Assembly (NCBI GenBank): GCA_964479875.1 | Contig: CAYZNM010000013.1 | Span: 21,573-85,572 of the forward strand | DNA length: 64,000 nt | Source: an uncultured Eubacteriales bacterium | GTDB lineage: Bacteria > Bacillota > Clostridia > Monoglobales > CAYZNM01 | Direction: 5' to 3' | Part shown: piece after piece, positions 26,874 to 55,475 of the stretch | Layout of the letters: every line of letters starts with the position of its first letter | How positions within the stretch are numbered: the stretch's first letter is position 1 | Program-made: the position numbers and the translations under genes | Notes under the pieces: model-generated | The model's database searches: none | Seen by the model: the letters and a program-made list of their open reading frames with translations, nothing else | Told to the model about the DNA's origin: nothing

Positions 26874-27674
26874 TTATTTTGTGAGCTTGCGAAGTCTTAC
26901 AACGCGCTTGGGGCATACCTCTAAGCATTTGCGGCAGTTGGTGCATTTTTCGGGGTCTACGGTCGCAAGGTTGTTGGCGATTGTGATTGCTTCAGCTTCG
27001 CAGGATTTCGCGCACAGGCGGCAACCTATGCAACCGATTGCGCATTGATTCTTCACAACGCCGCCCTTTTCTGTGTTGGCGCAGCCTACGTATACTTTGG
27101 ACGCGTGCGGAAGCATTGCGATAACCTTTTTGGGGCAGGATTTTACGCACGCACCGCAGCCTGTGCATTTGGATTCGTCTATCACTGCGACGCCGCTTTC
27201 CATTACGATTGCGTCGAATTTGCAAGCGGAAACGCATGTGCCGTAGCCTAGGCAGCCGCTGGCGCAAGCTTTGGGGCCGCCGCCTAGCCTTGACGCGGAC
27301 ACGCAATCATGCTCGCCGTCGTAGAAGTATTTGTTTATCGCTTGCTTGTCTGTGCCTACGCAGCGTACGCGCGCAGTCATGCGCACGGCTTTTTCTGCCG
27401 CGACGCCCATTATCTTGCTGATTTGGTCGACGCATTCTTGTCCGCCTGCGCTGCATAGCGTTAGCGCAGCCTTGCCTTCTACTACCGCGTTTGCATACGC
27501 GGAGCAGCCTGCGTATCCGCAGCCGCCGCAGTTTGCCGAGGGCAATGCTTCCATTATAAGCGGCACGCGCTCGTCAACTTTAACCTCAAATATTTTTCCG
27601 CATACGGCGAGCGCAAGCCCAAGCAGCAAGCCCATTCCGCCTAGCGAAATTGTAGCGTACAATATATTATTCAT
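26874..27674 (-). CDS. rnfB: Rnf electron-transport complex subunit B.
   Basis: N-terminal TM anchor, 'CGGCGYAGC' cluster, and multiple CxxCxxCxxxCP 4Fe-4S ferredoxin motifs. Confidence 0.85.
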   Translation of the reverse strand: MNNILYATISLGGMGLLLGLALAVCGKIFEVKVDERVPLIMEALPSANCGGCGYAGCSAYANAVVEGKAALTLCSAGGQECVDQISKIMGVAAEKAVRMTARVRCVGTDKQAINKYFYDGEHDCVSASRLGGGPKACASGCLGYGTCVSACKFDAIVMESGVAVIDESKCTGCGACVKSCPKKVIAMLPHASKVYVGCANTEKGGVVKNQCAIGCIGCRLCAKSCEAEAITIANNLATVDPEKCTNCRKCLEVCPKRVVRLRKLTK

Positions 27675-27713
27675 AATTATTACCTCTAAATTAGCGCGTA
27701 ATGCGCAGTCGCG

Positions 27714-28292
27714 TTAAATTTTTATTCCCGAGAAGCCCATGAACGCAATCGCAATAAGTCCGGCGGATATAAGCGCAATCGGGAAGCCTTGCAGGGGCTT
27801 CGGCACATCGGCAAGTATCAAGCGTTCGCGTACGCCTGCCATGAGTACCATCGCAAGCGTGAAGCCGATTCCGGCTGTTGCGCCGTAGGATACTGCTTCG
27901 GCGAAGTTGTAGCCTTTGTCTATGTTGAGCAGTGTTACGCCTAATACGGCGCAGTTCGTGGTGATAAGCGGAAGGTATATGCCTAATGCTTGATACAAGC
28001 CTTGGCTGTATCGTTGCAGGAACATTTCTACCACCTGCACCAGCGACGCGATTACCAATATAAATGCAATCGTCTGCAAATAATCAAGCTCAAACGGCAC
28101 AAGTATAAGGCTGTTCACAAGCCACGTAATCGCCGACGCAAGCGACATAACGAATATAACTGCCATGCCCATGCCGAGCGCAGTGTCAAGCTTCTTCGAC
28201 ACGCCCAAGAAAGGGCATATGCCTAAGAACTTCACTACTACAAAGTTTTCAACTAAAATCGCGGTCAACGCGATGTATATGATGTTGTTCAT
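27714..28292 (-). CDS. rnfA: Rnf complex subunit A.
   Basis: '[21 protein letters not shown]' is the RnfA/NqrE signature. 6-TM, 192 aa. Confidence 0.85.
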
Positions 28293-28936
28293 GCTTTTTT
28301 CCTCATGGTAACAGCGTTAATCACGCCGATGATTATGCCCAGTACGATAAAGCTTCCGGCAGGCAGTATGAATATCAGCGCAGGCATGAAGCCCTCTCCG
28401 AACAAGGATATGCCCAGAATGCTTCCGTTGCCGAGAATCTCGCGCACTGCCGCTATTATGATAAGCGCGGCCGTGAAGCCTAGCCCCATCGTAAGTCCGT
28501 CCAACGCGGACAGCCCTACGCCGTTTTTGCTTGCAAAGCTTTCCGCGCGCGCAAGGATTATGCAGTTAACCACGATAAGCGGAATGAATATGCCAAGCGA
28601 TTTGGATATTTCCGGGAAATAAGCTTTTAGCAGAATGTCAATCATGGTAACAAAGCCTGCTATGATTATGATGTAAGCCGCGATGCGAATTTTCGCAGGG
28701 ATAAATTTGCGCAGCAGCGATATTACCATGTTGGAGCAGATTAGCACTATGCTGGCAGATAAGCCCATGCCGATTGCGTTTATGACGGAGGTCGTGGTCG
28801 CAAGCGTGGGGCACATGCCTAGAAGCTGCACGTATACGGGATTTTGCTTGATGAGCCCGTTTTGCAGCATTGATTTTATTGTGGGTGTTTTGGTCATTTT
28901 TACCTCTATTGTGTTAGTTTGTATCAAAATCAACAA
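28289..28936 (-). CDS. rnfE: Rnf complex subunit E.
   Basis: '[18 protein letters not shown]' RnfE/NqrD signature. Start overlaps the rnfA stop. Confidence 0.85.
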
Positions 28937-29111
28937 AGTCCTCTTCGGCTAATTCCTCACTCCGGTTGATTGCTTCTATTTCATCAGGGAGCGGGTCATC
29001 TTCGGGGTACATTCCCATCAAAATACAAAACAACTCATTGAATTTCGATTCATCGATTTGTTCTATCATCTGTTGAAGCATTTGTTTTGTAACTTCCATC
29101 TTCATATTCAT
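28914..29111 (-). CDS. Small acidic hypothetical protein (65 aa) embedded between rnfG and rnfE.
   Basis: The ORF overlaps the rnfG stop by 4 nt and the rnfE start by 23 nt, which fits translational coupling. Highly acidic C-terminus ([12 protein letters not shown]). No known family recognised. Confidence 0.35.
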   Translation of the reverse strand: MNMKMEVTKQMLQQMIEQIDESKFNELFCILMGMYPEDDPLPDEIEAINRSEELAEEDFVDFDTN

Positions 29112-29647
29112 TTTCCTTGTGCGATTTGAATCGCATTCGCTACGCCTTCGCGTACGGCGTTGGACGTAATTGTCGCGCCGGAGATTGCTTCGACTTCGGT
29201 CGCGGGGTTTGTTACGCCTTTCTTTATCACAAGGTCGCTACCCTTGCCTACGAATTGCGTGAGGAAGGATTCGTTTTCGGCGTTGGAGCCTAGACCTGGG
29301 GTTTCGCTCATTTCAAGTATGGTTAAGCCTACGACTTTGTAGTCGCCGTCTAGGCCTACCATCAGCACGACGTCGCCGCCGTAGCCTTTGCCTGCGGCTG
29401 TTACGGCGTAGTATTTGTCGCCGGAGTTGGTTGTGATAACGCGTACGCCTTGCTTATTTTCGTCTTGTTCAACCGAGAGAATTTCGCGTCCTGGGATTGG
29501 CACTACCTTTTCTACAGCTGCTTCCTCTGCTTTTAATTGGTTTTCGGCGATTTTATCTTTGGTCAGCATGTTTGTCAGCGACAACATGAGCGCGATAACT
29601 AAGCTAATCAAGCATAGCTTTAACGCGATAACAGCAAAATTACCCAT
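29108..29647 (-). CDS. rnfG: Rnf complex subunit G (FMN-binding).
   Basis: N-terminal TM and the FMN-attachment region 'AISGATITSNAV' (S/T-G-A-T flavinylation motif). Confidence 0.8.
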   Translation of the reverse strand: MGNFAVIALKLCLISLVIALMLSLTNMLTKDKIAENQLKAEEAAVEKVVPIPGREILSVEQDENKQGVRVITTNSGDKYYAVTAAGKGYGGDVVLMVGLDGDYKVVGLTILEMSETPGLGSNAENESFLTQFVGKGSDLVIKKGVTNPATEVEAISGATITSNAVREGVANAIQIAQGK

Positions 29648-30635
29648 TCGCAGTCACCGCCTTTTTGCCTTTTGTGCCGAAACGTCGCGGCTTGATGTAT
29701 TTGTCAATCAGCGGCGTTACAATATTCATCAGCAATATGGAATATGACACGCCCTCAGGATAACCGCCGAGTAGTCGTATGAACACAGTTATGCAGCCTG
29801 CGCCTATTCCGAAAATAATCATTCCTTTGCGCGTAACAGGCGTGGTCGTGTAGTCTGTAGCCATGAAAAATGCACCGAGGAATAAGCCGCCTGTGAGTGT
29901 ATGCTCAAGCCATTCGCCGGTGAAAAATCCATCCGCGCCGAATATGAAACCAAGCAACGCCACTGTGCCAATCATGGCTACAGGCGTATGTAATGTAATT
30001 ACTCGCCTAAACAACAGATATGCCGCGCCGATTAATATCGCGAGCTTGGACGTTTCGCCGATACAGCCGCCGATATTTCCGATGAATAAATCGAGATACT
30101 TAGGCATATCGCCCTCGGCTAAGCCTTTCATAATCGCAAGCGGAGTTGCTGATGAAACCGCATCGTTTACAAAAAGCGACAGCTTTGGGAAAGCAGCGAC
30201 GAATCCGCCTGTAACAAACGCAGGCCAGCAGGCTGTTAAAAACGCGCGCCCTGCCAACGCAGGATTCACGATGTTCTGCCCTAATCCGCCGAAGCACATC
30301 TTTACAATTACAATCATAAACAACGCGCCTACAACAGGCACCCATAACGGCACTGTCACAGGCAGGTTAAATGCAAGCAGCATTCCCGAAACGATCGCCG
30401 AGCCGTCCTTAACTGTAGTAGGCTGCTTTGTCGCAACGCACCATAGCATTTCAAACAAAACGCTCGCGGCAACTGTTACCGCTGTAACAACAGCAGCGCG
30501 GTACCCGAAAAAGTACACGCCCGCGACAAGCATGGGCAGCATTGCGATAACCACGTCAAACATGACAAAGCTTGTGTTGCTCCGCGCACGTATATGAGGT
30601 GGCTGTGATACTGTCAATAATTCGCTCATCTTCAT
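29640..30635 (-). CDS. rnfD: Rnf complex subunit D.
   Basis: Polytopic membrane protein with the 'FFMATDYTTTPVT' FMN-binding threonine motif of RnfD/NqrB. Confidence 0.85.
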   Translation of the reverse strand: MKMSELLTVSQPPHIRARSNTSFVMFDVVIAMLPMLVAGVYFFGYRAAVVTAVTVAASVLFEMLWCVATKQPTTVKDGSAIVSGMLLAFNLPVTVPLWVPVVGALFMIVIVKMCFGGLGQNIVNPALAGRAFLTACWPAFVTGGFVAAFPKLSLFVNDAVSSATPLAIMKGLAEGDMPKYLDLFIGNIGGCIGETSKLAILIGAAYLLFRRVITLHTPVAMIGTVALLGFIFGADGFFTGEWLEHTLTGGLFLGAFFMATDYTTTPVTRKGMIIFGIGAGCITVFIRLLGGYPEGVSYSILLMNIVTPLIDKYIKPRRFGTKGKKAVTANG

Positions 30636-30763
30636 TTTCCTTTTTAATATTTTTCATCTTGCATTATATCACGAAGATTGCGAAAATGCAATATTAATTT
30701 ATGGATTTTGCATGTTGCACAAATTAGAGCGTGTGCAGAGCGCGGAACGCATAAATGCGTTCC

Positions 30764-32065
30764 CTACAGTTTGAGGCTGAACCAAAATACGCTGCCTGCA
30801 CCTTCGCGCGATTTCACGCCGTAGCCGCCGTTGTGCAGCTCTATCACCTTTTTTACGATGGAGAGGCCTAAGCCTGTGCCTGTGATTGCGCGCTTGTGCT
30901 TTTTGTCAACCTTGTAGTATCTGTCCCATATATATGGAAGGTTTTCTGGGGCTATGCCCTCGCCGTTGTCGACTACTTCTATTTTTACTGAACCTAAGTC
31001 GATTGTTTGGATTACTGTGATGTGTTTGTCGTTCACTGAATAGTTGATTGCGTTTATTAGGAGGTTGTAGAAGGCTTGGGTGATTTTTACTTCGTCGGCG
31101 ATTATTGTTACGTCGCGGTCGTGGTCGAATGCGATTGTGTAGTTGTCTTTTTTTGCAAGCGCGGCTATTCGTTCGGTGGTGGCTTTTAGGGTTTGGGTTA
31201 GGTTGAAGGGGGCGGCGTTTAGCTGCTGTATGCCTGATTCGAGCTTGGATATGTCGAGTACGTCGTTGACTAGGGTGGACAGGCGTTTGGCTTCGTCCAT
31301 GATGATTTGGGTTTGTTCGGGTGAAATTTCGTCGGGGAAGTCGTGCATAACTTCGGCGTAGCTGTAGATTAGGCTTAGGGGGGTGCGCAGGTCGTGGGAG
31401 ATGTTTGCAAGTAGCTCGCGGCGTAGGCTTTCGGTTTTTGATAGCTCTGCTGCCGCGGTGTTTAGTGTGTCGGATAGCTCGCGTATTTCGAGAAAACCCC
31501 TGCCGCGGAAGTTTGCGTCATAGTTTCCTCTTGCAAGATTTTTTGCGGCTTTGTTGAGCGATTCTATCGGCGCGGAGATGTTGCGTGCGATGAGCAGCGC
31601 AAGCACTATCGACAGCAGCAGCACTGTGCCTGTGATGAAGAAAAGCTGATAGCGCAGCGTGTTGACAGTTGCGTCGAGGGGGGAGATTATCGCGTTGAAG
31701 GTGATGGATATATTTTTGCCGTTGGTTAGGGTGAAGGTGTGCGTTTGAGTTACTATTTCAAGCTTGCGCCTGTTTGGGTCGCGTTCGGGGCGCATGGGTT
31801 TGAATGTTTCGCCGTCTTCAAAGGTGATGAATATGTCGCTGCTTGCTGCGACTTCATTTAAAATGTAGGCTAAGTCGGCGGAGTTTATGTTTTGTTCGAC
31901 GTAGTTTATTACGCGCTGTAATTCCTGTTTACGAATGTATTTGTATGTGTCGCCTAGGAAAACTGTTTGCGCAAGCCAAAGCACTGCGAGCAGAAGTGCG
32001 CAGAACGCTAGGACATACGCGAATATTTTCCATTTTATGCGGAGGTTGTTTGTGTTGAGTTTCAT
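30764..32065 (-). CDS. Sensor histidine kinase (TM sensor - HisKA - HATPase_c).
   Basis: H-box 'LANISHDLRTPLS', N-box and G-boxes ('VVDNGEGI', 'GTGLGLSIV'). The ORF track starts at 32173; the Met at MKLNTNN directly precedes the TM helix and is the likelier start. No response regulator is adjacent. Confidence 0.8.
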   Translation of the reverse strand: MKLNTNNLRIKWKIFAYVLAFCALLLAVLWLAQTVFLGDTYKYIRKQELQRVINYVEQNINSADLAYILNEVAASSDIFITFEDGETFKPMRPERDPNRRKLEIVTQTHTFTLTNGKNISITFNAIISPLDATVNTLRYQLFFITGTVLLLSIVLALLIARNISAPIESLNKAAKNLARGNYDANFRGRGFLEIRELSDTLNTAAAELSKTESLRRELLANISHDLRTPLSLIYSYAEVMHDFPDEISPEQTQIIMDEAKRLSTLVNDVLDISKLESGIQQLNAAPFNLTQTLKATTERIAALAKKDNYTIAFDHDRDVTIIADEVKITQAFYNLLINAINYSVNDKHITVIQTIDLGSVKIEVVDNGEGIAPENLPYIWDRYYKVDKKHKRAITGTGLGLSIVKKVIELHNGGYGVKSREGAGSVFWFSLKL

Positions 32066-32301
32066 TCTGCACCTTGGGTTTTTGTTTATTTTATCATGGT
32101 GGTGTGATATTAATTTGTGCTTTATCTGAATTATAGGTGAAGATTGTGGTATAGTCAAATGCGTTTCAATCAATTATCACAGAAGTACGACGAACGCCGA
32201 TAGAATCAAGGAAACGCATTTGACTAGCAGTTCGTTTTAGAGTTATGTAACTATAGTTGAAATATTATGTATGATTTGGTATACTGCTTTAAAGGGGTGA
32301 T

Positions 32302-33324
32302 TTGATGAGAAAGGTAAAGCTTGGCAGCACGGGGATTATGGCGACGCATGTGTCGCTTGGATTGCTGCCGTTGCAGCGCGTCGATATGGACGAGGCCGCG
32401 CGTATACTTGAGCGTGCGTATGGGGCAGGGATTAACTTTTACGATACCGCGCGCGGATATTCCGATAGTGAGGAAAAGTTGGGGAACGCATTGTCGAGCG
32501 TGCGAGATAAAATTTACATCGCTACAAAGTCAGGCGCACAATCGGGCGAGGGCTTGCGCAGGGAATTGGAAACTAGCTTGTCCAATTTGAAGACGGATTA
32601 TGTTGATGTTTTGCAGCTGCACAATCCGGCGTTCTGCCCGATTCCGGGAGGTGTTGACGGGATATATGACGCGGCACTGCAAGCTAAAGCGGAAGGCTTA
32701 GTTCGACATATAGGAATAACCAATCACAGGAAGCATGTCGCGGACGAAGCGGTGGCAAGCGGATTGTACGAGCTGTTGCAATTTCCGCTGTCGTATTTGT
32801 CAAGCGAGAGCGAGCTTGAGCTTGCGCGGAATTGCGCTGCTGCGGATATGGGGTTTGTGGCGATGAAGCCGCTTGCAGGCGGCGTGCTTACAAATGCTAA
32901 GGCTGTGTATAGCTTTTTTGAAACCGTGCCGCATGTTGTGCCGATTTACGGCGTGCAGCGCATGGAGGAGCTTGAGGAGTTTTTGGGATTTGTCGACAAT
33001 CCTCCTGCGCTTGCGGAGGTGCGTGAGGTTATGGAGAAGGATATTGCAGAGCTTCGCGGAAGCTTTTGCCGCAACTGCGGCTATTGCTTGCCTTGCCCGG
33101 AGGGGATTCGCGTCGACCACGTGTGCCGCTCATACTATAACCTGCGCAGGCTGCCGCAGCAGAATCTGCTCACGCCTGAGTGGAGGCAGATGATGGAGGA
33201 TACAAAGAAGTGTAAAAAGTGCGGCGCGTGCAGTAAACGCTGCCCGTATGAGCTTGACCCTCCGTCGCGCTTTGAGTTTATGTACGACGATTATATGAAG
33301 CATTACGAAAAGACAGGGGGATAA
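32302..33324 (+). CDS. Aldo/keto reductase fused to a C-terminal Fe-S cluster-binding segment.
   Basis: AKR TIM-barrel blocks (YDTARGY, 'IGITNH'). C-terminal Cys cluster 'CRNCGYCLPCP ... CKKCGACSKRCP'. Confidence 0.7.
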   Translation: MMRKVKLGSTGIMATHVSLGLLPLQRVDMDEAARILERAYGAGINFYDTARGYSDSEEKLGNALSSVRDKIYIATKSGAQSGEGLRRELETSLSNLKTDYVDVLQLHNPAFCPIPGGVDGIYDAALQAKAEGLVRHIGITNHRKHVADEAVASGLYELLQFPLSYLSSESELELARNCAAADMGFVAMKPLAGGVLTNAKAVYSFFETVPHVVPIYGVQRMEELEEFLGFVDNPPALAEVREVMEKDIAELRGSFCRNCGYCLPCPEGIRVDHVCRSYYNLRRLPQQNLLTPEWRQMMEDTKKCKKCGACSKRCPYELDPPSRFEFMYDDYMKHYEKTGG

Positions 33325-53592: not shown

Positions 53593-54852
53593 TTATTTTT
53601 TCCTCTTGCGCCTTTTATATGCACTGCGCAGAATCGCGCGAATGATAAAGTATAAAGCTATCAAAATCACACAGACGCCGCCTGTGAGCAGCAAGCCTGT
53701 CGATACCCATTTTTCGCCCAGCATGTCGATTAGCTTTGCTTGATACAGCGATATGTAATCGAGCTGCACATTGTCTGCGGCGGCAAGCGGCACTGCCGCA
53801 ATAAGCTTGCCGTTGACGTAGTAGCGCGCTTCGGCGTAAATCTCGCCCTTTGTAACAGGGGCGGTCAGCGGCTCGACTTCGATTTCCGTTTCTACCTTGT
53901 CGCCGCTGCCTAACAGGCAGTTGACGTTATCGGTCGACAGCAGCAGCACATGCCCCTTATTCTTACCATGGGTAACAGGTACTTCGCGTACAATTTCGTC
54001 CAGTCGCATAAGCGACACGTTGCCGTAATCAGTTTCCACGTAGTCGTAGAGCTGCTGCGCCATTGCGTAGCTTTGCTTGATTCCGTCAACTATGTCCGCA
54101 TTCGCGATAATCGCCGTGACAAATGCGCCGTCCTTCTTCCAGAACACGGCCATGGTTTCGCCGTTTACAGGGCAAAAGCCGCCGATGAATCGCTCGTCGA
54201 TAAGCCTGTCGTCGTGGAAAACTTCGATAAAGTGGTTGTTGGAGTAGATGTATCGCGCAGGACCTATGTTTGTCGCGGGATATGACACTCTCCCGGTCGA
54301 CAATATCGATTGCAGATGAGGATTGCGCATTGCCTCATTAAATAATATGTTCAGGTCAGCTAGGGTTGTGTATCCCTGTGACGCAGGTATTCCTGCCGGA
54401 TTGGTGAAGTTGGAGTTGCTCATGCCAAGCTCCGCCGCTTTTTTATTCATAAGACGCGCGAATTGCTCGAGGCTGCCGCTTATCTCGTACGCAAGCGCGT
54501 ACGCCGCGTCGACAGCGTTGCCGACCAGCATTCCGTTAAGGCACATCTCGGCCGTGACAACCTCGCCCACCTTCAAGCGCATGTTGCGGTAGCTGTTGAA
54601 ATACGCGACACGCATGTCCTCGGTAAAGACAATGTTTCGGCTCATGCCTATATTTTCGACGGCGACAAGCGCAGTCATCAGCATTGCGTAATCCTGCCCC
54701 ACGATACGCATGTCCGCGTTTTGCGAAAATATAACCGAGCCGCCGTCCGCCGAAAGCAACACTGCCGCATTAGGGGTAAAAGTCGGCGCGGCAAAACAAA
54801 CCTGCACCGTAAGCACAATCGCAAGCAGCAACAGCACTAGCTTAAATCTCAT
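53593..54852 (-). CDS. PBP5/DacA-like D,D-carboxypeptidase homologue lacking the catalytic SxxK Ser and Lys (predicted pseudo-enzyme), C-terminally membrane-anchored.
   Basis: Signal peptide. 'SQNADMRIVGQDYAMLMT' aligns to DacA 'EQNADVRRDPASLTKMMT' with Ser to Asp and Lys to Met. C-terminal TM plus RKRKK stop-transfer. Confidence 0.55.
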   Translation of the reverse strand: MRFKLVLLLLAIVLTVQVCFAAPTFTPNAAVLLSADGGSVIFSQNADMRIVGQDYAMLMTALVAVENIGMSRNIVFTEDMRVAYFNSYRNMRLKVGEVVTAEMCLNGMLVGNAVDAAYALAYEISGSLEQFARLMNKKAAELGMSNSNFTNPAGIPASQGYTTLADLNILFNEAMRNPHLQSILSTGRVSYPATNIGPARYIYSNNHFIEVFHDDRLIDERFIGGFCPVNGETMAVFWKKDGAFVTAIIANADIVDGIKQSYAMAQQLYDYVETDYGNVSLMRLDEIVREVPVTHGKNKGHVLLLSTDNVNCLLGSGDKVETEIEVEPLTAPVTKGEIYAEARYYVNGKLIAAVPLAAADNVQLDYISLYQAKLIDMLGEKWVSTGLLLTGGVCVILIALYFIIRAILRSAYKRRKRKK

Positions 54853-55475
54853 ACAAAACTTTCTGTTATAACATTAATAGCGTCGTCCTTGACAATAAGC
54901 TGGCCGCGCTCGCTTAGCTGCCCAAGCTTAATAAGACTGTTATCCTGCTTCATCGCAAATTCATGCAGCAGATTGTCTATGTCCTCGCCATTGAGCGGAC
55001 TTTTAAGTTCCAGCGACAAATAGTAAGTATTTTCCAGCATATACAACGCGCTCAACCCAATGAATCGGTTCTTGATAACATTGCACGCGTCAATCAAATC
55101 GTCAAGCTGCGTAAACTCGTACACGATGGGGTTGTGGAACACGCGCGTGGTTTTAAGCCGCGCGCGAATCTCATTCTTGCGAATGCGCGACTTCACAATG
55201 CGCTCAAACCGCGCCTCATCCTCATCAAGCTTGGTGATTATCATAACAAAGCCCTCGCTGCGTGCAGGCATAGCCTCCACGATAAGCTGTGAGCCGTCGA
55301 TAAAAAAGTTCGCCTCCGTTTCAGCCTTGCGAATCATGCTCCAAAACAGCTCCTGCGTTTCGGGCGAATTATATGAAATTGCGTTCAAATCTATATCCCA
55401 CTCACGCAGGTCGTCCATTGTAAGAGTAACTTTAATTTTGTTTGGGGAAATGCGCTCTATCTTAATAATAATCAC
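54849..55475 (-). CDS. mecA: MecA-family adaptor protein (ClpC adaptor).
   Basis: 'IERISPNKIKVTLTMDDLRE...ELFWSMIRKAETE...FIDGSQLIVEAMP...NTYYLSLEL...ERGQLIVKD' is collinear with the B. subtilis MecA pattern (IERINEHTVKF...ELFWEVMDE...YYLYVDF...EYGKLIISE). Confidence 0.75.
   Translation of the reverse strand: MIIIKIERISPNKIKVTLTMDDLREWDIDLNAISYNSPETQELFWSMIRKAETEANFFIDGSQLIVEAMPARSEGFVMIITKLDEDEARFERIVKSRIRKNEIRARLKTTRVFHNPIVYEFTQLDDLIDACNVIKNRFIGLSALYMLENTYYLSLELKSPLNGEDIDNLLHEFAMKQDNSLIKLGQLSERGQLIVKDDAINVITESFV

What the first reader, a model, noticed from the sequence alone, without database searches (positions are those of the whole stretch)
26874..30635. rnfDGEAB operon with no rnfC in place.
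Subunits D, G, E, A and B are all recognisable by signature motifs and are translationally coupled, but the NADH-binding RnfC normally encoded first (rnfCDGEAB) is missing. The 128-nt region upstream of rnfD is intergenic and is followed by a histidine-kinase gene. The complex may use a trans-encoded RnfC, or it may be a variant coupling ferredoxin to a different donor or acceptor.
Basis: partly seen in the sequence, partly recalled or inferred. Interest (0 to 1): 0.5.

Follow-up and report, generated by a model that had tools for sequence, protein, structure and literature searches.

The report
Rnf operon split from its rnfC
This is an ordinary clostridial Rnf ion pump whose first gene, rnfC, was moved away from the other five by a recent genome rearrangement; an intact rnfC that almost certainly belongs to the same organism sits on another contig, so nothing suggests a new kind of enzyme.

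Summary
On the minus strand the window encodes rnfD, rnfG, rnfE, rnfA and rnfB (26874-30635). No rnfC or remnant of one exists anywhere in the 64 kb. A histidine-kinase gene lies 128 nt upstream of rnfD.

The closest relatives (RnfD 62-75% identical) share the downstream gene order and all carry rnfC directly upstream of rnfD, so the loss of adjacency is recent. In the same run series that holds the window's contig (SRR10912415-18) there is a 9.6-kb contig with an intact 442-aa rnfC. Its upstream genes match those of the closest relative, a strong hairpin terminator follows it, and unrelated genes sit where rnfD should be. GC content, tetranucleotide profile and divergence from the relative all match the window.

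The two contigs are therefore best read as the two halves of one ancestral rnfCDGEAB locus. rnfDGEAB now has its own extended -10 promoter. Best reading (about 0.8): a split operon with RnfC supplied in trans. A variant Rnf with another donor has no support.

Physical linkage of the two contigs is inferred, not shown. Interest is low.

The parts
29640..30635 (-). rnfD, the membrane subunit that carries covalent FMN. The more likely start is the second ATG at 30629, giving 329 aa.
   Evidence: PF03116 E 1.6e-115 and TIGR01946 319 bits. It aligns end to end with solved RnfD 7ZC6_D (E 3.5e-92), with the 'SSATPLA' flavinylation motif opposite 'TTATPLA'. The GGA core of the ribosome-binding site lies 8 nt from the second ATG and only 2 nt from the first. 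The NCBI gene call is 329 aa.
29108..29647 (-). rnfG, the FMN-binding subunit. It overlaps rnfD by 8 nt.
   Evidence: PF04205 E 1.5e-21; TIGR01947 100.4 bits, just below its cutoff of 102. An 'SGATITS' motif is present in the translation.
28914..29111 (-). orf65, a small acidic ORF inserted between rnfG and rnfE. It is probably a hitch-hiking small gene rather than an Rnf subunit.
   Evidence: It has no Pfam, NCBIfam or PHROG family. It is absent from L003, L004 and L005, where rnfG and rnfE overlap. It belongs to a family of about 63-aa proteins with 1185 hits and the motif IPEDxPLPDEIEAI. Homologues sit in unrelated contexts.
28289..28897 (-). rnfE, a membrane subunit. The start is taken at ATG 28897, which follows an AGAGGT ribosome-binding site.
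   Evidence: PF02508 E 1.5e-63 and TIGR01948 250 bits. The N-terminus [22 protein letters not shown] corresponds by eye to that of L003 RnfE. It is 82% identical to L003 RnfE.
27714..28292 (-). rnfA, a membrane subunit. It overlaps rnfE by 4 nt.
   Evidence: PF02508 E 2.2e-62 and TIGR01943 272 bits. It is 82% identical to L003 RnfA.
26874..27674 (-). rnfB, the ferredoxin-side polyferredoxin subunit with an N-terminal membrane anchor.
   Evidence: PF04060 FeS plus several Fer4 domains; TIGR01944 114 bits. Two CxxCxxCxxxCP motifs are present.
30663..30691 (-). Candidate promoter for rnfDGEAB: TTGCAT (30691-30686), a 17-nt spacer, then TGaTATAAT (30671-30663).
   Evidence: Read directly from the sequence. 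The -10 hexamer is perfect and has the TGn extension. The -35 matches only 3 of 6, so the consensus scanner did not list the site. Function is inferred.
30744..30763 (-). An 8-bp hairpin (GGAACGCA-TTTA-TGCGTTCC) directly after the kinase stop codon. It may be a weak terminator that insulates rnfD from kinase transcription.
   Evidence: Read directly from the sequence. No T-run follows, and the terminator scan did not flag it.
30764..32173 (-). Orphan histidine kinase in the position where relatives carry rnfC. This is the new left-hand neighbour created by the rearrangement.
   Evidence: HAMP, HisKA and HATPase_c domains. It has its own TTGACT-17-TATAAT promoter at 32158-32130. The next gene upstream is a divergent aldo/keto reductase and not a response regulator.

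Best explanation
The locus encodes five of the six subunits of a standard clostridial-type (rnfCDGEAB) ferredoxin:NAD+ oxidoreductase ion pump. A recent rearrangement, with a breakpoint exactly between rnfC and rnfD, removed rnfC from the locus.

rnfC survives intact elsewhere in the same genome. There it is still attached to its ancestral upstream genes (fumarase C subunit, DUF1858, a 97-aa ORF) and now ends at a strong intrinsic terminator. rnfDGEAB has acquired its own extended -10 promoter in the new 128-nt spacer.

RnfC is the peripheral NADH/FMN/2x[4Fe-4S] subunit. It would be made from the second locus and would dock on the RnfD/G/E/A/B membrane core as usual.

Shown here:
- the gene content and the intactness of all six genes;
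- conservation of the cofactor motifs;
- the ancestral adjacency of rnfC and rnfD in relatives;
- the existence of the orphan rnfC contig and its compositional match to the window.

Inferred:
- that the two contigs belong to one genome;
- that the promoter and terminator function;
- that the two units are co-expressed and the complex assembles.
For: 1. Relatives carry rnfC directly upstream of rnfD. This holds for RnfD relatives at 75% (L003, GCA_964412285.1), 65% (L004) and 62% (L005) identity, and for L008. The first three also share the window's downstream order: pyridoxal/HMP kinase, methyltransferase, two ECF ATPases, CbiQ, TruA, DUF5711, CvpA, IlvD.

2. A search with the L003 RnfC found only two close relatives. 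One of them, P0128 (about 72% identical), lies on Logan contigs from SRR10912415 and SRR10912418. The window's own contigs occur in SRR10912416, 17 and 18.

3. On that contig (L009) rnfC is a full 442-aa ORF. It is preceded by fumC', DUF1858 and a 97-aa ORF, the same order as upstream of rnfC in L003. It is followed by unrelated genes, not by rnfD.

4. L009 has GC 0.493 against 0.490 for the window. Its tetranucleotide correlation with the window is 0.926, inside the range of the window's own 9.6-kb pieces against the rest (0.90-0.95). Every other locus tested scores 0.83 or lower.

5. L009's divergence from L003 (56-77% per protein) matches that of the window (52-82%).

6. The protein searches show exactly one RnfD and one RnfC of this clade in that run series.

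7. L009 RnfC aligns end to end with solved RnfC 9ERI_C (E 9e-133) and 7ZC6_C. The GMGGATFPTHVKL and NGAECEPYLT motifs and both CxxCxxCxxxCP motifs are intact.

8. A hairpin of -48 kcal/mol (z -7.9) followed by a U-rich tract lies directly after rnfC. A TGaTATAAT element precedes rnfD.

9. All five window genes are intact and keep their cofactor motifs.
Against: - Physical linkage of L009 and the window is not shown. L009 does not overlap the window.
- The 90%-identity protein cluster of this RnfC has no NCBI member, although the window's proteins do.
- A scan of 185,579 species-representative genomes with the L009 RnfC gave no hit above 56% identity. If the window's MAG is in that collection, its assembly lacks this contig. 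This fits a short unbinned contig, but it also fits true absence.
- The exact-sequence look-ups did not find the window's rnfB in SRR10912415. The two contigs were named together in only one run, SRR10912418.
- There are no expression data.
Confidence: 0.8

Rival explanations
1. rnfC really has been lost from this organism, and L009 belongs to another strain or species. The remaining RnfDGEAB is either a decaying remnant or a core that takes or gives electrons through some partner other than RnfC.
For: - There is no rnfC in 64 kb.
- No NCBI-sourced copy of the L009-type RnfC exists, and the genome-contig scan gave no hit above 56% identity.
- orf65 is a lineage-specific addition inside the operon.
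Against: - All five genes are intact and keep their cofactor motifs, and RnfA and RnfE are 82% identical to the relative's.
- An intact orphan rnfC with matching composition, matching divergence and complementary gene order occurs in the same run series.
- No second RnfD of this clade exists in those data to go with that rnfC.
- No candidate replacement redox module sits next to the operon.
- Homologues of orf65 occur in contexts unrelated to Rnf.
Confidence: 0.1
2. The kinase-rnfD junction is an assembly artefact (a chimeric contig), and the real genome still has rnfC next to rnfD.
For: Two Logan contigs from other runs begin inside the spacer upstream of rnfD, at window 30726 and 30669, so assemblies tend to break there.
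Against: - The kinase-rnfD junction is recovered with 100% identity in the NCBI contig and in Logan contig SRR10912416_50800.
- The complementary junction (rnfC, terminator, 182-aa ORF) is recovered in two separate runs as contigs of identical length.
- Each junction carries sensible signals: a terminator after rnfC, and a promoter plus ribosome-binding site before rnfD.
- No contig with rnfC joined to this rnfD was found.
Confidence: 0.05
3. The L009 gene is not the Rnf subunit. It would instead be an RnfC-like paralogue serving another enzyme, such as RnfC2 of the MetFV methylene-tetrahydrofolate reductase.
For: Of 80 RnfC-like loci in genome contigs, 22 lack rnfD. These are MetV-RnfC2 fusions followed by metV and metF, so orphan RnfC-like genes are common in this family.
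Against: - L009 RnfC has no MetV N-terminal domain and no metV or metF neighbour.
- It is 72% identical to the L003 RnfC that sits directly upstream of rnfD, and only about 46% identical to the RnfC2-type loci.
- It shares the upstream genes of the L003 rnfC.
Confidence: 0.03

Closest known systems
Clostridial/acetogen-type Rnf complex encoded by rnfCDGEAB (Acetobacterium woodii PDB 9ERI; Clostridium tetanomorphum PDB 7ZC6)
   Same: The subunits and their order D-G-E-A-B are the same. End-to-end alignments give E 3.5e-92 for RnfD against 7ZC6_D and E 9e-133 for the L009 RnfC against 9ERI_C. The flavinylation, Fe-S and NADH/FMN motifs are conserved.
   Different: rnfC is not contiguous with rnfD. 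It lies at least 33 kb away or on another replicon or contig. An extra 65-codon ORF sits between rnfG and rnfE. rnfDGEAB has its own promoter.
Split nqr operon of Chlamydiae (the homologous Na+-NQR, encoded in three fragments; cited in PMC4014512)
   Same: It is a precedent for a complex of the same superfamily being encoded at several loci.
   Different: It is a different enzyme (NQR, with NqrF and no RnfB) in a different lineage, and the split is ancient. Here the split arose after divergence from a relative whose RnfD is 75% identical.
RnfC2 of the MetF/MetV/RnfC2 methylene-THF reductase of acetogens (the A. woodii RnfC2-MetV-MetF complex is named from my own knowledge)
   Same: It is an RnfC-family protein encoded away from rnfD. 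It is common in Oscillospiraceae MAGs (22 of 80 loci).
   Different: Those genes carry an N-terminal MetV-like domain and are followed by metV and metF. The L009 rnfC has neither, and it is the orthologue of operon-encoded rnfC.

Membership tests
Rnf complex (RnfABCDGE-type ferredoxin:NAD+ oxidoreductase) | Membrane core subunits RnfD, RnfG, RnfE and RnfA are present and intact | tested here: met
   TIGR01946, TIGR01948 and TIGR01943 score above their curated cutoffs. TIGR01947 (RnfG) scores 100.4 against a cutoff of 102, with a strong FMN_bind match. RnfD aligns end to end with 7ZC6_D.
Rnf complex (RnfABCDGE-type ferredoxin:NAD+ oxidoreductase) | RnfB: membrane-anchored polyferredoxin with the PF04060 Fe-S domain | tested here: met
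   PF04060 E 1.7e-12 plus several Fer4 domains; TIGR01944 114 bits against a cutoff of 68.7.
Rnf complex (RnfABCDGE-type ferredoxin:NAD+ oxidoreductase) | RnfC (NADH/FMN-binding subunit with 2x[4Fe-4S]) is encoded in the same genome | tested here: inconclusive
   RnfC is absent from the window. An intact orthologue lies on L009, from the same run series, with matching composition and complementary gene order. Linkage to the window's genome is inferred, not shown.
Rnf complex (RnfABCDGE-type ferredoxin:NAD+ oxidoreductase) | Covalent-FMN attachment motifs (S/T-x-A-T) in RnfD and RnfG, and paired cysteines in RnfA and RnfE | tested here: met
   RnfD has 'SSATPLA', aligned opposite 'TTATPLA' of 7ZC6_D. 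RnfG has 'SGATITS'. RnfE has 'GMCPTLA' and 'VVNCIIL'. RnfA has 'GICPFLG' and 'TTNCAVL'. The last three are read from the translations. That these motifs are the attachment and cluster sites comes from my own knowledge of the Rnf/NQR structures.
Rnf complex (RnfABCDGE-type ferredoxin:NAD+ oxidoreductase) | Ferredoxin:NAD+ oxidoreductase activity coupled to ion translocation | not testable with these tools
   This needs biochemistry on membranes or on the purified complex.
Canonical contiguous rnfCDGEAB operon (Clostridia type) | rnfC lies immediately upstream of rnfD in one transcription unit | tested here: not met
   A histidine kinase and a 128-nt spacer precede rnfD. By contrast, 55 of 80 RnfC-like loci in genome contigs have rnfD detected just downstream of rnfC, and so do L003, L004, L005 and L008.
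Na+-NQR (nqrABCDEF) | NqrF is present, RnfB is absent, and the Nqr equivalog models are satisfied | tested here: not met
   RnfB is present. Every Nqr equivalog model scores far below its cutoff, for example nqrB at 172 bits against 350.
RnfC2 / MetFV-associated RnfC paralogue | N-terminal MetV-like domain and adjacent metV and metF genes | tested here: not met
   tblastn with MetV and MetF queries finds nothing on L009, while 22 control loci are positive. The L009 rnfC ORF begins at the RnfC_N region.

The most novel reading that the evidence does not exclude
The organism truly lacks RnfC. Its RnfDGEAB core, perhaps together with the lineage-specific 65-aa protein encoded between rnfG and rnfE, would then work with a different cytoplasmic electron partner. 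That would be a naturally RnfC-less Rnf variant.
Probability: 0.05. Interest if true: 0.6.

Novelty: new member of a known kind. Interest (0 to 1): 0.15.

Why it matters
It matters little for Rnf mechanism. The practical lesson is for annotation. Pathway-completeness calls on MAGs that require a contiguous rnfCDGEAB operon would score this organism as Rnf-incomplete, when the sixth gene has most likely been moved and then left out of the bin. The case also dates a clean operon split to the interval after divergence from a relative with 75% RnfD identity. In that interval a new promoter appeared before rnfD and a terminator after rnfC. This makes a small, tidy example of how operons break and are re-wired.

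Tried and rejected
- Searching the window for rnfC by ORF listing, motif scan and relaxed tblastn found nothing.
- I tried to recover the window's own NCBI contig and assembly accession. P0002 is not on record, and P0003 returned only Logan contigs. The organism's assembly therefore could not be named.
- The genome-contig scan with the L009 RnfC gave a best hit of only 56%. It neither confirmed nor excluded rnfC in the window's MAG.
- A look-up of the 925-aa protein at the right end of the window, meant to extend the contig toward a possible link with L009, was not on record.
- The L009 terminator repeat was tested as a genome-specific repeat shared with the window. No copies were found.
- blastn of L009 against the window showed no overlap.
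- orf65 was considered as an Rnf accessory subunit or an antitoxin. It matches no family in Pfam, NCBIfam or PHROGs, and its homologues sit in unrelated contexts. I rejected it as an Rnf-specific part.
- Orphan RnfC-like genes in Faecousia and Oscillospiraceae MAGs were considered as precedents for split rnf operons. They are RnfC2-MetV-MetF loci, so I rejected them.
- Literature searches for described split rnf operons found none. The only precedent found was the split nqr operon of Chlamydiae.
Full report
**Observation**

On the minus strand the window carries five intact rnf genes.
- rnfD, 29640-30635: PF03116 E 1.6e-115; TIGR01946 319 bits.
- rnfG, 29108-29647: FMN_bind; TIGR01947 100.4 bits, just under its cutoff of 102.
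- rnfE, 28289-28897: TIGR01948 250 bits.
- rnfA, 27714-28292: TIGR01943 272 bits.
- rnfB, 26874-27674: PF04060 plus several 4Fe-4S domains.

A 128-nt spacer and a HAMP/HisKA/HATPase_c histidine kinase (30764-32173) lie upstream.

No rnfC exists anywhere in the 64 kb.
- None of the 42 ORFs of 250 aa or more is RnfC-like.
- No GGxGFP motif occurs in any frame.
- tblastn with four RnfC or RnfC2 queries at E<=10 returns only ferredoxin cysteine-motif cross-hits, and nothing in the spacer or the kinase.

Two details need correcting.
- Coupling is partial. D/G and E/A overlap, but A-B are 39 nt apart.
- G and E are separated by a 65-codon ORF (28914-29111). It overlaps the rnfG stop codon and ends 16 nt before the rnfE start.

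**What relatives look like**

The closest RnfD proteins are poorly sampled. After the window's own cluster come one at 75% (NCBI MAG GCA_964412285.1), one at 65%, and many at about 60%. The named ones are Oscillospiraceae under NCBI taxonomy (Petroclostridium, Ructibacterium).

I read the genomic context of the 75%, 65% and 62% relatives (L003, L004, L005). All three have rnfC directly upstream of rnfD. All three continue downstream with the same genes as the window: pyridoxal/HMP kinase, SAM methyltransferase, two ECF ATPases, CbiQ, TruA, DUF5711, CvpA and IlvD. None has an ORF between rnfG and rnfE.

The window's arrangement is therefore derived and recent. One breakpoint falls exactly between rnfC and rnfD.

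**Where rnfC went**

A search with the L003 RnfC found only two close relatives.
- P0127 (67%) lies on a 4-kb contig of another MAG and is followed by an rnfD (L008).
- P0128 (about 72%) lies on 9,595-bp Logan contigs from SRR10912415 and SRR10912418.

The window's own sequence occurs, at 100% identity, in Logan contigs from SRR10912416, 17 and 18.

On the P0128 contig (L009), rnfC is a complete 442-aa ORF (1130-2458). It is preceded by a partial fumarase C subunit, DUF1858 and a 97-aa ORF, which is the order found upstream of rnfC in L003. After rnfC comes a hairpin of -48 kcal/mol (z = -7.9) with a U-rich tail. Then come a 182-aa ORF of no known family, a GNAT, a cupin and further genes. There is no rnfD.

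**Are L009 and the window one genome?**

Four lines of evidence support this.
- Gene order is complementary. L009 keeps the left half of the L003 locus and the window keeps the right half.
- Divergence from L003 is equal: 56-77% per protein for L009 and 52-82% for the window.
- Composition matches. GC is 0.493 against 0.490. The tetranucleotide correlation is 0.926, inside the range of the window's own 9.6-kb pieces against the rest (0.90-0.95). L008 scores 0.83 and every other locus tested scores 0.57 or lower.
- In that run series the databases hold exactly one RnfD and one RnfC of this clade.

Against this, there is no physical link. The RnfC cluster has no NCBI member. A scan of the species-representative genome collection with this RnfC returned nothing above 56%. 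So the MAG that holds the window, if it is in that collection, does not include this contig. A 9.6-kb contig is easily left unbinned, but true absence cannot be excluded.

I put "same genome" at roughly 0.85.

**Is the L009 gene a real RnfC?**

It aligns end to end with the solved RnfC subunits of A. woodii (9ERI_C, E 9e-133) and C. tetanomorphum (7ZC6_C). The GMGGATFPTHVKL and NGAECEPYLT segments and both CxxCxxCxxxCP motifs are intact.

Orphan RnfC-like genes are common. Of 80 RnfC-like loci from the genome collection, 55 have rnfD detected just downstream. Another 22 lack it, but these are MetV-RnfC2 fusions followed by metV and metF, that is, the methylene-THF reductase module. Three (Calditrichaeota-type) remain unclear. 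L009 has no MetV domain and no metV or metF, so it is not that paralogue.

**How it most likely works**

RnfC is the peripheral NADH-side subunit, and nothing in its role requires it to be encoded in cis.
- After the split, rnfC stays at the end of its ancestral transcription unit. It starts 22 nt after the 97-aa ORF, and the unit is now closed by a strong terminator.
- rnfDGEAB has a new 5' region. An 8-bp hairpin follows the kinase stop codon (30763-30744). Then come TTGCAT, a 17-nt spacer and TGaTATAAT (30691-30663), and then an AGGA ribosome-binding site 8 nt before the ATG at 30629.
- The consensus scanner does not list this promoter, because the -35 matches only 3 of 6. The extended -10 is my reading of the sequence.
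- All window subunits keep their cofactor motifs. These are SSATPLA in RnfD (aligned to TTATPLA of 7ZC6_D), SGATITS in RnfG, the paired cysteines in RnfA and RnfE, and the Fe-S motifs in RnfB.

The operon therefore looks functional. Promoter and terminator activity, co-expression and assembly are inferences.

**Rival readings**

- True loss of rnfC, leaving a remnant or re-partnered core (about 0.10). This is disfavoured because all genes are intact and the matching orphan rnfC exists.
- Chimeric assembly (about 0.05). Two Logan contigs do start inside the spacer, at 30726 and 30669. However, the kinase-rnfD junction was recovered in two assemblies and the rnfC-182aa junction in two separate runs, and each junction carries proper signals.
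- L009 encoding a non-Rnf paralogue (about 0.03). Orthology and gene context reject this.

**The 65-codon ORF**

It has no Pfam, NCBIfam or PHROG family. It does belong to a large family of about 63-aa proteins of gut Clostridia, with 1185 profile hits and the conserved motif IPEDxPLPDEIEAI.
- A 50%-identical homologue sits inside a glutamate mutase operon, among other small or selfish-looking genes (DUF5680, Uma2, a PIN toxin pair).
- A Roseburia homologue stands alone between unrelated genes.

It behaves like a small hitch-hiking gene, not an Rnf component.

**Comparison with what is known, and novelty**

This is a clostridial-type Rnf complex. The only departures are in gene organisation: rnfC in trans and one extra small ORF.

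The papers I read describe three contiguous operon types (rnfABCDGE, rnfBCDGEA, rnfCDGEAB). They mention a split operon only for the homologous nqr genes of Chlamydiae. I found no described split rnf operon. That is a gap in description, not a biological surprise.

**Verdict**

Interest is 0.15. It is a new member of a known kind with an atypical gene arrangement.

Noticed in passing
window 28914-29111 (minus strand); L092 4001-4201; L095 4001-4192: A 65-aa acidic ORF is inserted between rnfG and rnfE. It belongs to an unannotated family of about 63-aa proteins (1185 hits; motif IPEDxPLPDEIEAI). A 50%-identical homologue is likewise inserted inside a glutamate mutase operon, next to DUF5680, Uma2 and a PIN toxin pair. 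This may be a small gene that hitch-hikes inside operons, or an antitoxin-like gene.
   Followed up: partly
window 30764-32173 (minus strand): An orphan histidine kinase (HAMP, HisKA, HATPase_c) has its own near-consensus promoter (TTGACT-17-TATAAT, 32158-32130). No response regulator is adjacent; the next gene is a divergent aldo/keto reductase with a C-terminal 4Fe-4S domain (32302-33324). Its isolation may mark a second rearrangement breakpoint.
   Followed up: no
window 30669 and 30726 (starts of Logan contigs L007 and L002): Two independent per-run assemblies break inside the 128-nt spacer upstream of rnfD. The rnfC contig has exactly the same length (9,595 bp) in two runs. This suggests assembly-graph branch points (strain variation or repeats) at these places. 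The cause is unexplained.
   Followed up: no
L069 9326-12814, and 21 other loci among L026-L088: Many Faecousia and other Oscillospiraceae MAGs, and also Alkalibaculum sporogenes (L026), carry a 653-aa fusion of a MetV-like zinc-ribbon domain to an RnfC-like protein, followed by metV and metF. This looks like an RnfC2-type NADH-dependent methylene-THF reductase module, which points to the Wood-Ljungdahl pathway in those organisms.
   Followed up: partly
L005 8649-9979: In GCA_022706765.1 rnfC is called as two ORFs: 270 aa (RnfC_N + Complex1_51K) and 173 aa (SLBB + Fer4). This is either a frameshift or sequencing error, or a genuinely split rnfC.
   Followed up: no
P0010: A 509-aa protein combining RnfD and an FMN_bind (RnfG) domain occurs in 'Firmicutes bacterium ADurb.Bin193'. 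It appears to be an RnfD-RnfG fusion.
   Followed up: no
window 54849-55475 (minus strand): A mecA homologue lies 24 kb upstream of rnfD and runs in the same direction. In the more distant relatives L004 and L005, mecA is the immediate divergent neighbour of rnfC. In the closest relative L003 and on L009, the upstream neighbours of rnfC are instead fumC-DUF1858-small ORF. The region upstream of rnf has been rearranged repeatedly in this clade.
   Followed up: partly
L009 2458-2564: The terminator after the orphan rnfC is unusually long: arms of about 35 nt built from short tandem repeats (ACTAAAG x2, GACTAATGGTGAAT x2). No copy occurs in the window. It may be a footprint of the rearrangement or of a small mobile element.
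   Followed up: partly
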